Shown here: positions 9,930 through 12,469 of the stretch, piece by piece
Layout: each line of letters begins with the position of its first letter
How positions within the stretch are numbered: position 1 is the stretch's first letter
UHGV virus genome: UHGV-0812067
Direction: 5' to 3' (one strand)
Length of the DNA: 17,252 nt
From: a virus
Notes under the pieces: generated by a model
The model's database searches: none
Seen by the model: only the letters and a program-made list of their open reading frames with translations
Told to the model about the DNA's origin: nothing
Position numbers and translations under genes: made by a program

Positions 9930-10105
9930 AATGCGAGAAAAATAGCCTGAAATGTTCAAAAATGCACGATAATCATGAAACACAAAAAATTAATCAAACC
10001 AGCGTGATGCCTGAAAAAACTGGTGTTTACTGGAATTCTCGGTTTAGCATTGCTCCTATGCTCGATAGGATGTACCGTTTTTGAAAAACAAGTAGTTATA
10101 CACTT

Positions 10106-10129: not shown

Positions 10130-10319
10130 TATTCTTAGAAAGCATCATTTGCTCATCACTTCAATTGACCATGGTTAAAGCCAGCTATAAACTTGACAAA
10201 CGAGGTAACTGGTTGCTTAGGCCCAAGTGGGCACACCATAAGAAGCTCATGTTGGTGATGAAGCAACCCATGAAGTATCGAGAATAATTATAAAGTTCAC
10301 TATCTTTGAGGTTTCTTAT

Positions 10320-10892
10320 ATGTTTTGCGAAGAAAAAGTAGCTCAAATGGCTGCATACCTACTTCTTAAGAGAGGTGGGCGCATGGCATATCTGAAATTG
10401 ATGAAGCTGCTCTATCTGTCTAACCGCCAGTCGATTTTGAAGCATGGCAGGATGATCGGCGAAGATAGCCTTTACTCTATGAAATTTGGACCAGTCATGT
10501 CGAATACGCTGAACTTGATTCGCGGTAAGGCTGAAGGCATTGGTGACTACTGGTACAACTTGATAGAGACGAACGGGCATAATGTATCGTTGCGTTCAGA
10601 TCCGAGGGAAATGGATGCAGACGAGGTCTTTGATGAATTGAGTCGTGCAGATATCCGGATTTTAGATGAAATCTATTCTCGGTATGGGCATATGAACCGA
10701 TTTGATCTCGCAAATATGACGCATTTAGAAAGCGTTTGTCCAGAGTGGCACGATCCTGGCAATTCTCGTAAGCCTATAGACCTGAAAGAAATGCTGATCA
10801 GTGAGGGTAAAAGCGAGGATGAGGCTAATCGCATAATTGGCAAAATGGAAGAATCTCAGAAACTTAAGGAATTTTCTTTGCAATTATCATGA
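10320..10892 (+). CDS. Panacea-domain (DUF4065, PanA/SocA/GepA-like) protein, putative antitoxin or sensor component
   Basis: ATG at 10320 with GAGG (10308-10311, 8-nt spacer). Residues about 20-70 (...AYLKLMKLLYLSNRQSILKHGRMIGEDSLYSMKFGPVMSNT...) fit the Panacea signature (KLqKLLYL ... w/y-GPV). Coding DNA is low-GC relative to flanking phage genes. Confidence 0.75.
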   Translation: MFCEEKVAQMAAYLLLKRGGRMAYLKLMKLLYLSNRQSILKHGRMIGEDSLYSMKFGPVMSNTLNLIRGKAEGIGDYWYNLIETNGHNVSLRSDPREMDADEVFDELSRADIRILDEIYSRYGHMNRFDLANMTHLESVCPEWHDPGNSRKPIDLKEMLISEGKSEDEANRIIGKMEESQKLKEFSLQLS

Positions 10893-11308
10893 CGGATTAT
10901 CAGCCATACAGGAAAGGAACTGTGCTTGCCCCAACTGGACCATGCAATCATCTTCATGTGATTTGTAATGATCCTGTTTATTACCCCGTTAACGATTGTT
11001 ATTGTGTTTTAGTTGTTAATATTTCTAGTATCAAGGATGGTGTCCCCCACGATCCGTCTTGCGTCTTGAATTCTGGTGATCATCGCTTTATCAAGCATCC
11101 AAGTTATGTTGTTTACGCTGAAGCTATAATTTGGCGAGTGGATAACATGGTTAGAAAGCAGCGATCGGGTGAGATTTCTGTTCATGATGATATGCCAGAA
11201 GCTACATTCAATAGAATTCTGGACGGTTTTGATATCTCTGATGAAGTTACGCCAAAGAACCTTAAATTTAAAAATAAATATTGCGTATCATCTATTGATG
11301 ATGAGTAA
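10889..11308 (+). CDS. hypothetical 139-aa protein translationally coupled to the Panacea-domain gene, candidate toxin/effector
   Basis: ATGA overlap at 10889-10892 with the upstream stop. Protein MTDYQPYRKGTVLAPTGPCNHLHVICNDPVYYPVNDCYC... has Cys/His-rich motifs and I recognise no family. Lowest GC in the window. Confidence 0.65.
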   Translation: MTDYQPYRKGTVLAPTGPCNHLHVICNDPVYYPVNDCYCVLVVNISSIKDGVPHDPSCVLNSGDHRFIKHPSYVVYAEAIIWRVDNMVRKQRSGEISVHDDMPEATFNRILDGFDISDEVTPKNLKFKNKYCVSSIDDE

Positions 11309-11347
11309 ACAACAGGAATTGTTTCGGTATAACTTCTGGAGTTTTCT

Positions 11348-11521
11348 ATGGAAGATCAAAAAGCAACCAAGCCACAGGTTAAGTTCGACACAATGAAAGC
11401 ATTCGCAGGTATGGGTGCTGCTGTTGAAGTTCTGATGAAGGCTGCTCCTAACGCGTTCACTCACGCTATTGTCTCTGGTAAAGAGCAGCAGGGTAAGCTT
11501 CGTCGTCGCAAGGCAGCATGA
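11348..11521 (+). CDS. small 57-aa protein of unknown function (not in the ORF track, below its length cut-off)
   Basis: Hand translation: MEDQKATKPQVKFDTMKAFAGMGAAVEVLMKAAPNAFTHAIVSGKEQQGKLRRRKAA. GGAG (11338-11341) lies 6 nt before the ATG, and a strong intrinsic terminator follows 22 bp after the stop. Codon choice looks like a well-expressed enterobacterial gene. Confidence 0.5.
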   Translation: MEDQKATKPQVKFDTMKAFAGMGAAVEVLMKAAPNAFTHAIVSGKEQQGKLRRRKAA

Positions 11522-11543
11522 TCATAGCTGGTGCTTTTTGAAA

Positions 11544-11573
11544 GCCCGCCATCTGGCGGGTTTTTCTTTTTTA
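11544..11573 (+). terminator. rho-independent terminator
   Basis: gcccgcc-atct-ggcgggt GC-rich stem followed by tttttctttttt. Confidence 0.75.
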
Positions 11574-11585
11574 TCGGTGCGGAAC

Positions 11586-11858
11586 TCAACTATTTTTCTG
11601 TTTGTTCGTTCTGACCCTTTCCCATTCAATTCTGCCTTCTTCACGCCGCTGGTCTATATACTCAGCAAGATCCTGAATGTTGATACAGCGCTTCGCTTTC
11701 TGTGATGTTCCTACACGGTAAGTCGGGATCGGCAACTGACAGGCATTTGCTTTCGCTTCTGCTGTGTTAGGGCTCATACCGAAATACTTTTGGCATACCG
11801 CTGACAGCTCGATGTTAGGCGTGTTGAACTCAGCCATAAGTAAAAACAAAGTATTCAT
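11586..11858 (-). CDS. PrtN-family (pyocin activator-like) small DNA-binding protein; possible regulator or recombination directionality factor
   Basis: 90 aa, MNTLFLLMAEFNTPNIELSAVCQKYFGMSPNTAEAKANACQLPIPTYRVGTSQKA..., the characteristic N-terminus of PrtN-like proteins common in enterobacterial prophages. GGAG lies 7 nt upstream of the ATG. Confidence 0.7.
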   Translation of the reverse strand: MNTLFLLMAEFNTPNIELSAVCQKYFGMSPNTAEAKANACQLPIPTYRVGTSQKAKRCINIQDLAEYIDQRREEGRIEWERVRTNKQKNS

Positions 11859-11896: not shown

Positions 11897-12469
11897 TTAC
11901 AGGTCGCTGCTGGTGGCCGGAATCAACTTCTGCCAGATCGCGGACACGTATTTTGCTTGATGTCGCGCATCGGCCAGTGCGTTATGTGCAACCCCATCGA
12001 ATGGCATATCTCGCTTTGGATCGAAACCCACCACTCTGCCTAATGTGACGATGGTTCTGACGTCGTGATCGTTCCAAAATTGCCACGGGCAAACCTGGCC
12101 GGTGCGCTCATATGCGCCGCGCAATATAACGTTGTCGAAAGTAGCTCCATTGCCCCAAACTTTTAAATATTTGGGGTTATCAGAATGCCGATTAATGAAA
12201 TGGCTCAGTTCAGATAGGGCAGACGATATCGGCATCGCATCATCAACACAGATTGCTGATCGTGCTTCTGAGCTTTGTCTTAACCACCACAGAATAGTGT
12301 CACCATCCGGCACCGCTCCCTGCTCCATAGCGCTTTCAAGGTTAACGGCGGTGTAAAACTCCTGACCCAGTTCACCGCTTTGCGGATCGAAGAACACGGC
12401 ACCAATGGAGACGATAGGGGCATTCGGTCTTTTGCCCATAGACTCAAGGTCGATCATTAAATTGTTCAC
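11897..12469 (-). CDS. DnaQ-like 3'-5' exonuclease (DEDDh family)
   Basis: Motif I MIDLESMG, central FDN and C-terminal H-x4-D (VAHNALADA). GTG at 12469 has AGGAG 10 nt upstream; an alternative ATG is at 12457. Confidence 0.75.
   Translation of the reverse strand: MNNLMIDLESMGKRPNAPIVSIGAVFFDPQSGELGQEFYTAVNLESAMEQGAVPDGDTILWWLRQSSEARSAICVDDAMPISSALSELSHFINRHSDNPKYLKVWGNGATFDNVILRGAYERTGQVCPWQFWNDHDVRTIVTLGRVVGFDPKRDMPFDGVAHNALADARHQAKYVSAIWQKLIPATSSDL

What the first reader, a model, noticed from the sequence alone, without database searches (positions are those of the whole stretch)
10320..11573. Low-GC cargo operon: Panacea-domain protein coupled to an unrecognisable 139-aa protein, candidate toxin-antitoxin or anti-phage module
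Between the integrase and the leftward early operon sits a plus-strand insert whose GC content is visibly lower than the surrounding phage genes. Gene 1 carries the Panacea (DUF4065) signature (KLMKLLYL ... KFGPV). Gene 2 overlaps it by ATGA, the classic translational coupling of antitoxin-toxin pairs, and has Cys/His-rich motifs (CNHLHVIC, CYC) that I cannot assign to any family. A third small gene and a strong terminator close the unit. Panacea domains are known to neutralise many unrelated toxin domains, so the partner may be a new toxin class. The position, between integrase and the PrtN-like gene, is a typical accessory-gene slot.
Basis: partly seen in the sequence, partly recalled or inferred. 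Interest (0 to 1): 0.85.

Follow-up and report, generated by a model that had tools for sequence, protein, structure and literature searches.

The report
Prophage PanA–PanT toxin–antitoxin cassette
This is a two-gene toxin-antitoxin module (a Panacea-domain antitoxin plus a MazF-shaped toxin) carried as a swappable cargo cassette at the end of an E. coli prophage; the pair belongs to a toxin family catalogued in 2022, so it is not a new toxin class.

Summary
Two plus-strand ORFs (190 aa, 10320-10892; 139 aa, 10889-11308) overlap by ATGA. Gene 1 hits Pfam SocA_Panacea (E 2e-19). A stem-loop terminator follows at 11540-11565. The cassette is the lowest-GC 1.2 kb of the window.

Gene 2 is not a new toxin class. 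A homologue 57% identical to it, WP_101821906.1, is listed in toxin cluster T6 of Kurata et al. 2022. The Pseudomonas moraviensis representative of T6 was shown there to be toxic, neutralised and bound by its PanA, and a specific inhibitor of translation.

The third small gene is phage backbone, not part of the module. The cassette (about 10130-11334) sits next to the dusA attachment site. Related prophages carry other toxin-antitoxin-like pairs in the same slot.

Anti-phage activity is plausible but untested. Verdict: new member of a known kind, modest interest.

The parts
10130..11334 (+). Cargo cassette: upstream region, panA and panT. It replaces a different cassette found in phage mEp460.
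   Evidence: The window and mEp460 are near-identical from the integrase through attP up to about 10129, then diverge. Similarity resumes at about 11335 (query position 1136 of the query starting at 10200). This is the lowest-GC 1.2 kb of the window, 0.406.
10165..10193 (+). Sigma-70 promoter-like site (TTGACC-17-TAAACT). A 14-nt near-palindrome overlaps the -35 hexamer. Weak candidate only.
   Evidence: 9 of 12 matches, but the number of sites in the region is not above the shuffled expectation (3 found, 4.8 expected). Palindrome.
10320..10892 (+). panA: 190-aa Panacea-domain antitoxin with no extra N-terminal domain and a conserved C-terminal helical tail.
   Evidence: Pfam PF13274, E 2.2e-19. 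RefSeq names it 'Panacea domain-containing protein'. Homologues of 183-193 aa lie directly upstream of the toxin in 32 of 32 loci.
10889..11308 (+). panT: 139-aa toxin of cluster T6, with a MazF/Kid-like beta-barrel and C-terminal helices. Its start overlaps the panA stop (ATGA).
11348..11521 (+). 57-aa ORF (phrog_2741, unknown function). An adjacent phage-backbone gene, probably co-transcribed with the pair, but not part of the toxin-antitoxin pair.
   Evidence: PHROG hit. Present in mEp460 without panAT. Absent next to the pair in Shewanella, Vibrio and Proteus loci.
11540..11575 (+). Intrinsic terminator-like stem-loop plus T-run that closes the plus-strand unit.
9962..10084 (+). Context: phage-borne mimic of the 5' end of host dusA. 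The att core lies at about 10038-10070. It places the cassette at the attL end of the prophage.
   Evidence: Alignment of the window with the RM8385 lysogen junction and mEp460. RefSeq annotates a truncated dusA immediately before panA in lysogens.

Best explanation
The region is a type II PanA-PanT toxin-antitoxin module. It is carried as a self-contained cargo cassette at the attachment-site end of a dusA-integrating temperate phage of E. coli with SfV-like tail genes.

Shown here:
- Gene 1 is a single-domain Panacea antitoxin.
- Gene 2 belongs to PanT cluster T6 and has a MazF/Kid-type fold.
- The two genes overlap by 4 nt.
- They are inherited together across distant bacteria and across unrelated mobile elements.

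Inferred from the experimentally validated T6 pair of Pseudomonas moraviensis (Kurata et al. 2022):
- Free PanT stops growth by blocking translation.
- PanA neutralises it by direct, stable binding.
- Translational coupling keeps antitoxin made with or ahead of toxin.

Inferred from fold and conservation: PanT is most probably an endoribonuclease. Its site would be built from the family-wide conserved residues H21, D55, C58, H65, S/T47, S72 and Y76, not from the canonical MazF Arg/Thr pair.

Speculative: in the lysogen the module is expressed from its own weak promoter and/or by read-through from the host dusA promoter. It would serve either as an abortive-infection defence against other phages or as a prophage-retention (addiction) device.
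For: Gene 1: Panacea domain, Pfam E 2.2e-19.

Anatomy: ATGA overlap and terminator.

Gene 2 family:
- 62 close homologues.
- 2,642 clusters at 50% identity with E<=1e-3.
- P0107, 57% identical to gene 2, is WP_101821906.1. That accession is the T6 toxin of 'Yersiniaceae bacterium 2016Iso4' in Kurata Dataset S1.
- The genome scan independently recovered two genomes that are listed in T6, Pantoea septica LMG 5345 and Chimaeribacter coloradensis 2016-Iso4.

Experimental support for T6: the representative PanT of P. moraviensis was validated as toxic, neutralised, pulled down with its PanA, and specifically inhibits 35S-Met incorporation.

PanA link: the P. moraviensis PanA N-terminus quoted in that paper (MIFSEQKVAQ) matches the N-terminal motif conserved in gamma-proteobacterial PanAs of this subfamily (window MFCEEKVAQ, L019/L020 MFSEQRVAQ; only AAQ is kept in alpha-proteobacterial members).

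Linkage: a PanA homologue ends within a few nt of the PanT start, on the same strand, in 32 of 32 loci. These include Vibrio, Shewanella, Proteus, Methylococcaceae, Rhodobacter and Sphingomonas.

Cassette nature: the borders against mEp460, 205 of 5,426 E. coli genomes carrying the full module, and other toxin-antitoxin-like pairs in the same slot.
Against: - No experiment exists on this E. coli pair. Its accessions are absent from the supplementary text held for the two key papers (some files were truncated when stored).
- I could not obtain the P. moraviensis PanT sequence. The link to the validated toxin therefore rests on shared cluster membership and the PanA N-terminus, not on a direct alignment (one search did not surface it).
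- No sequence-level tie to MazF. Pfam PF02452 is not hit by gene 2 or by any of 92 homologues. A profile search of PDB finds nothing. hhalign against a small MazF/Kid/EndoA alignment gives a probability below 1%.
- Foldseek E-values are weak (6e-3 at best).
- Kurata et al. found some phage-borne predicted PanAT pairs (cluster T1) to be non-toxic.
- The promoter call is not above chance.
- There is no PADLOC hit and no published phage-protection data.
Confidence: 0.78

Rival explanations
1. The pair is a conserved two-gene phage module that is not a toxin-antitoxin system in E. coli. Gene 2 would be non-toxic or have another role, and the Panacea protein would act as a partner or sensor for something else.
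For: Kurata's Dataset S1 marks phage-borne predicted PanAT pairs of cluster T1 (E. coli MOD1_EC5558, Salmonella phage Emek) as 'not Toxic'. No experiment exists for this pair.
Against: Gene 2 is in T6, not T1, and the T6 representative was toxic and neutralised. Gene 2 has a toxin-type MazF/Kid fold. The antitoxin-then-toxin order and the overlap are strictly conserved across phyla and element types.
Confidence: 0.1
2. Gene 2 is a CcdB-like poison, for example of DNA gyrase, and not a MazF-like ribonuclease. CcdB and MazF share one fold.
Confidence: 0.07
3. Neutralisation works as in SocAB (type VI). The Panacea protein would act as a proteolytic adaptor that delivers the toxin to ClpXP, and not as a stoichiometric inhibitor.
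For: The Panacea domain was first defined in SocA, and Pfam names the family SocA_Panacea.
Against: The NCBIfam SocA equivalog scores 14.4 bits against a cut-off of 190. The partner is not SocB-like. The T6 pair of P. moraviensis forms a stable complex in pull-downs, and Kurata et al. classify PanAT pairs as type II.
Confidence: 0.04
4. Gene 2 founds a new toxin class within a three-gene operon.
For: No Pfam, NCBIfam, PADLOC or PDB sequence hit for gene 2. There is only a 39-nt gap and no terminator before the third ORF.
Against: T6 membership. MazF/Kid fold. The third ORF is absent from other copies of the pair, and it is present in mEp460 without the pair.
Confidence: 0.02

Closest known systems
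PanAT toxin-antitoxin systems, toxin cluster T6 (validated pair: Pseudomonas moraviensis PanA WP_083354365.1 / PanT WP_083201923.1; Kurata et al. 2022, PNAS, PMC8832971)
   Same: A Panacea-only antitoxin without an N-terminal domain lies upstream. The toxin of about 130-140 aa lies downstream and overlaps by 1 or 4 nt. The toxin has no CDD/Pfam hit but is MazF-like by structure or HHpred. A 57%-identical homologue of gene 2 is listed in T6. The N-terminal motif of PanA is shared.
   Different: This E. coli prophage pair is not in the published tables I could search, and it is untested. Its identity to the validated P. moraviensis toxin is unknown. Here the pair is phage cargo at an attachment site, whereas the validated pair is flagged 'NotPhage'.
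MazF / Kid (PemK) / EndoA endoribonuclease toxins (Pfam PF02452)
   Different: There is no detectable sequence similarity. The antitoxin is Panacea, not MazE/Kis/PemI. There is an extra C-terminal helical region (helices at residues 104-116 and 122-131). The conserved residues are H21, D55, C58, H65, S72 and Y76, not the MazF Arg29/Thr52 pair. The loop between strands 1 and 2 is short.
CcdB gyrase poison
   Different: It scores lower than the MazF/Kid structures. The T6 phenotype is a block of translation, not of replication.
SocAB (type VI toxin-antitoxin system, Caulobacter)
   Same: The antitoxin carries the Panacea domain.
   Different: It is not a SocA orthologue (14.4 bits against a cut-off of 190). 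The toxin is unrelated to SocB. Direct binding is expected, not ClpXP-mediated degradation.

Membership tests
PanAT (Panacea-antitoxin type II TA) | The antitoxin carries the Panacea/DUF4065 domain (PF13274). | tested here: met
   E 2.2e-19, 70.9 bits against a cut-off of 25.7, residues 27-137.
PanAT (Panacea-antitoxin type II TA) | A conserved two-gene, same-strand, adjacent or overlapping arrangement across genomes. | tested here: met
   A PanA homologue lies immediately upstream in 32 of 32 loci, with a 4-nt overlap in many.
PanAT (Panacea-antitoxin type II TA) | The toxin arrests growth, the cognate PanA rescues, and the two proteins form a complex. | not testable with these tools
   Shown only for the P. 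moraviensis T6 pair in PMC8832971.
PanT cluster T6 (Kurata 2022) | Sequence homology to proteins listed as T6 toxins. | tested here: met
   P0107 is 57% identical over 93% of gene 2. It is WP_101821906.1, which is listed as T6. The Pantoea septica LMG 5345 and Chimaeribacter loci were also recovered.
PanT cluster T6 (Kurata 2022) | Direct homology to the validated toxin WP_083201923.1. | not tested
   The sequence was not obtainable here. The third protein search did not surface a Pseudomonas entry among the 120 listed of 751 hits.
MazF/PemK/Kid endoribonucleases (PF02452) | Match to the family sequence model. | tested here: not met
   No hit for gene 2 at E<=1, and none for any of 92 homologues at E<=0.01. 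hhalign probability below 1%. Profile search of PDB is negative.
MazF/PemK/Kid endoribonucleases (PF02452) | MazF/CcdB-type beta-barrel fold. | tested here: met
   [not shown]
MazF/PemK/Kid endoribonucleases (PF02452) | Catalytic Arg (E. coli MazF R29) and Thr/Ser (T52) at the equivalent positions. | tested here: inconclusive
By strand register, H21 (100% conserved) lies near the R29 position and S/T47 (99% Ser or Thr) near T52. This is an inference only.
MazF/PemK/Kid endoribonucleases (PF02452) | Sequence-specific RNA cleavage. | not testable with these tools
   Needs biochemistry.
SocAB type VI TA | SocA orthology (NCBIfam NF047745 equivalog). | tested here: not met
   14.4 bits against a cut-off of 190.
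Known anti-phage defence systems (PADLOC-DB v2) | Match to any defence-protein model. | tested here: not met
   No hits for any of the three proteins at E<=1.

The most novel reading that the evidence does not exclude
The T6 PanT family is large: 2,642 clusters at 50% identity, with no Pfam model. It could be a mechanistically distinct branch of the MazF/CcdB fold that uses a His/Asp/Cys/His site (H21, D55, C58, H65) and cuts a different RNA target, or acts by different chemistry, than MazF. In this prophage the PanA-PanT pair would then act as an abortive-infection defence in which Panacea senses an incoming phage. The dusA-attL slot would be a dedicated hotspot where related prophages exchange toxin-antitoxin or defence cassettes.
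Probability: 0.2. Interest if true: 0.5.

Novelty: new member of a known kind. Interest (0 to 1): 0.27.

Why it matters
The result gives about 200 sequenced E. coli lysogens, and phages such as Lys8385Vzw and SKA5, a specific and testable annotation for two genes. One is currently labelled 'hypothetical', and its start codon is probably mis-called in RefSeq.

It ties those genes to an experimentally validated toxin family. It also shows that the attachment-site end of dusA-integrating prophages is a slot where different toxin-antitoxin pairs are exchanged.

It does not reveal a new toxin class. The open questions are the biochemical activity of the T6 toxin fold and whether the module protects lysogens from other phages or stabilises the prophage.

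Tried and rejected
- Pfam, NCBIfam, PADLOC and PHROGs on gene 2: only phrog_19071, of unknown function.
- Profile searches of PDB with 30-sequence and 92-sequence alignments: only chance-level hits.
The MazF relationship therefore rests on structure only.
- Scanning 92 diverse homologues individually against Pfam for a PemK hit: none.
- Looking for the window's RefSeq accessions in the supplements of PMC8832971 and PMC10440598: absent.
- Trying to reach the validated P. moraviensis toxin: the A1 and A3 profile protein searches and the genome scan returned no Pseudomonas entry.
- The afdb50 fold library was unavailable.
- Rfam on the whole window: no RNA family.
- Repeat search upstream of panA for an operator: only a short palindrome over the -35-like hexamer, not convincing.
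- Zinc-site reading of the Cys/His motifs: rejected, because C19, H23, C26, C37 and C39 are not conserved across the family.
- Three-gene operon reading: rejected.

Full report
**1. What is in the sequence**

The ORF list confirms two plus-strand ORFs, 10320-10892 (190 aa) and 10889-11308 (139 aa), followed by a 57-aa ORF at 11348-11521. The junction reads TTATCATGACGG, so the stop of gene 1 and the start of gene 2 overlap as ATGA. A terminator-like hairpin (11 pairs, 6 G-C) at 11540-11565 is followed by a T-run.

The region has low GC. The stretch 10130-11334 is 0.406 GC against a window mean of 0.499, the lowest of 321 sliding windows of that size. The integrase and attP region to the left are also low.

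RefSeq starts gene 2 at an internal GTG, giving 128 aa. The eleven residues upstream of that GTG are conserved in homologues (MTxYxPYRKGT). The ATG at 10889 and the 4-nt overlap are therefore the better model.

**2. Gene 1**

Gene 1 matches Pfam SocA_Panacea (PF13274) at E 2.2e-19, 70.9 bits against a gathering score of 25.7, over residues 27-137. RefSeq already calls it 'Panacea domain-containing protein'. It is not a SocA orthologue: the NCBIfam equivalog scores 14.4 bits against a cut-off of 190.

**3. Gene 2 has no sequence-level annotation but is not an orphan**

Pfam, NCBIfam and PADLOC give nothing meaningful, and PHROGs gives only a family of unknown function. A first search found 62 homologues in Enterobacterales, Vibrio and Shewanella. 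A profile search of a 1.84-billion-protein representative library found 2,642 clusters at E<=1e-3 and 868 at E<=1e-10. This is a large family without a Pfam model.

**4. Gene 2 belongs to a published PanT cluster**

Kurata et al. 2022 (PMC8832971) catalogued the toxins paired with Panacea antitoxins. Their Dataset S1 lists cluster T6 with antitoxin-then-toxin order and gaps of mostly -4 or -1. T6 includes several Enterobacterales: Proteus vulgaris, Pluralibacter gergoviae, Pantoea septica, Photorhabdus and 'Yersiniaceae bacterium 2016Iso4' with toxin WP_101821906.1.

- Homologue P0107 is 57% identical to gene 2 over 93% of its length.
- P0107 is exactly WP_101821906.1, now named Chimaeribacter coloradensis.
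- An independent scan of species-representative genomes recovered that locus and the Pantoea septica LMG 5345 locus.

The T6 representative from Pseudomonas moraviensis was validated in that paper. It was toxic, neutralised by its PanA, and co-purified with PanA. It was a specific inhibitor of 35S-methionine incorporation, with HHpred similarity to EndoA/PemK/MazF RNases.

The N-terminus that the authors restored to the P. moraviensis PanA is MIFSEQKVAQ. It matches the N-terminal motif conserved in gamma-proteobacterial PanAs of this subfamily (window MFCEEKVAQ, L019/L020 MFSEQRVAQ; only AAQ is kept in alpha-proteobacterial members).

I could not obtain the P. moraviensis toxin sequence itself. 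The link to the experiment is therefore through shared cluster membership, not a direct alignment. The window's own accessions do not occur in the supplementary text held for the two papers.

**5. Fold**

An AlphaFold2 model built from a 30-sequence alignment has mean pLDDT 89.4 and pTM 0.82. It shows a beta-barrel core followed by helices.

- Foldseek against PDB: the 50 best hits are all MazF/Kid-family toxins (MazF, Kid, YdcE, MoxT), though with weak E-values, 6.5e-3 at best.
- Viral structure library: PemK-like proteins come first.

At the sequence level the relationship is invisible:
- None of 92 diverse homologues hits Pfam PemK_toxin.
- Profiles find nothing in PDB.
- hhalign against a small MazF/Kid/EndoA alignment gives a probability below 1%.

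I therefore file gene 2 as 'MazF-fold, works like MazF', and not as a member of Pfam PF02452.

**6. Conserved residues**

Across 92 homologues that are 27-61% identical to the window protein, the conserved positions are:

| Position | Conservation |
|---|---|
| H21 | 100% |
| L22 | 98% |
| S/T47 | 99% |
| D55 | 98% |
| C58 | 98% |
| H65 | 98% |
| F67 | 96% |
| S/T72 | 100% |
| Y76 | 99% |
| G113 | 97% |
| S117 | 95% |

By strand register, H21 sits near the position of MazF R29 and S/T47 near T52. Without model coordinates this is inference only. A His/Asp/His-type acid-base site in a MazF fold is my working hypothesis.

**7. The pair is the unit**

In Shewanella, Vibrio and Proteus the toxin homologue always follows a Pfam-annotated Panacea gene, usually with the same 4-nt overlap. 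The contexts are unrelated: a P4-like integrative element, a P2/GPA-type element, and the tail-fibre end of a prophage next to Abi_2, peptidase S8 and ABC-ATPase genes.

I combined these with 24 genome loci. In 32 of 32 loci a PanA homologue ends within a few nucleotides of the toxin start on the same strand. This holds down to about 30% toxin identity in Rhodobacter, Sphingomonas and other Alphaproteobacteria. One of those loci, in Brenneria, is a decayed copy.

PanA length (183-193 aa from the conserved start) and its C-terminal tail are conserved throughout. This indicates a dedicated PanA subfamily co-evolving with T6 toxins. The 57-aa third gene is never part of these loci.

**8. Genomic setting**

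The window is from a temperate phage of E. coli whose tail genes resemble SfV. Phage SKA5 covers 73% of the window at 97% identity. Phages Lys8385Vzw and SKA5 carry the module at 99% identity. The full module is present in 205 of 5,426 complete E. coli genomes.

The ORF at 9962-10084 mimics the 5' end of host dusA. Alignment with a lysogen junction shows the crossover core at about 10038-10070. In lysogens panA is therefore the first prophage gene after a truncated host dusA. IMG/VR prophage calls often begin exactly at panA or panT.

Compared with phage mEp460, identity runs from the integrase to about 10129 and resumes at about 11335. In between, mEp460 has an unrelated 177-aa gene. The 57-aa gene and the PrtN-like 'excisionase' follow in both phages. 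So the cassette is about 10130-11334, and gene 3 plus the terminator are backbone.

Other dusA prophages carry different pairs in the same slot:
- A second Panacea protein (32% identical) with an unrelated 153-aa partner.
- An unknown 179-aa protein with a YafO-family toxin.

**9. How it most likely works**

- Shown: domain identity, fold, overlap, co-inheritance, cassette nature.
- Inferred from the validated T6 pair: PanT blocks translation, and PanA binds and neutralises it (type II).
- Inferred from fold and conservation: PanT is an endoribonuclease with a non-canonical active site.
- Speculative: expression from a weak promoter-like site at 10165-10193, which is not above chance, and/or read-through from dusA.
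- Speculative: the biological role is abortive infection or exclusion of other phages, or prophage addiction.

I found no published phage-protection test for this family, and there is no PADLOC match. Some phage-borne predicted PanAT pairs of another cluster (T1) were non-toxic when tested. Toxicity of this E. coli pair still needs an experiment.

**10. Verdict**

The Panacea and toxin-antitoxin reading is supported. The 'unassignable partner, possibly a new toxin class' reading is not: it is a T6 PanT with a MazF-like fold. The third gene is not part of the module.

Novelty: a new, untested member of a known kind. Interest is modest. The most interesting residual questions are the chemistry of the T6 fold and whether the dusA-attL slot is a defence or toxin-antitoxin exchange hotspot.

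Noticed in passing
[not shown]
   Followed up: partly
window 10889-10921: RefSeq/PGAP annotates gene 2 from an internal GTG (128 aa, WP_014640052.1). The upstream 11 residues are conserved in homologues, so the ATG at 10889, overlapping the panA stop, is the better start.
   Followed up: yes
window 9962-10084, core about 10038-10070: There is a phage-borne mimic of the 5' end of host dusA next to the integrase, typical of dusA-integrating elements. In lysogens the cassette lies directly downstream of the host dusA promoter and the truncated 5' end, so read-through expression is possible.
   Followed up: partly
window 11586-11858 (-): The PrtN-family gene (PF11112, E 3e-24) is annotated as 'excisionase' in phage mEp460. 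It is more likely the prophage excisionase or regulator than a pyocin activator.
   Followed up: no
[not shown]
   Followed up: partly
L006-L009 (Proteus/Providencia prophages), around 950-2990: Copies of the PanA-PanT pair at the tail-fibre end of prophages sit beside an Abi_2 protein or a UPF0167 protein, together with a peptidase S8 and an ABC/AAA ATPase. These look like defence-type neighbours.
   Followed up: no
L039-L102 (IMG/VR contigs): Many IMG/VR prophage predictions begin exactly at panA, with the toxin at position 570, or even at the first base of panT. Automated prophage boundaries therefore sometimes cut the pair in two.
   Followed up: no
window 11897-12469 (-): The first large early-left gene is an Rv2179c-like 3'-5' exoribonuclease-domain protein (PF16473, E 2e-74), annotated as exonuclease in related phages.
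   Followed up: no
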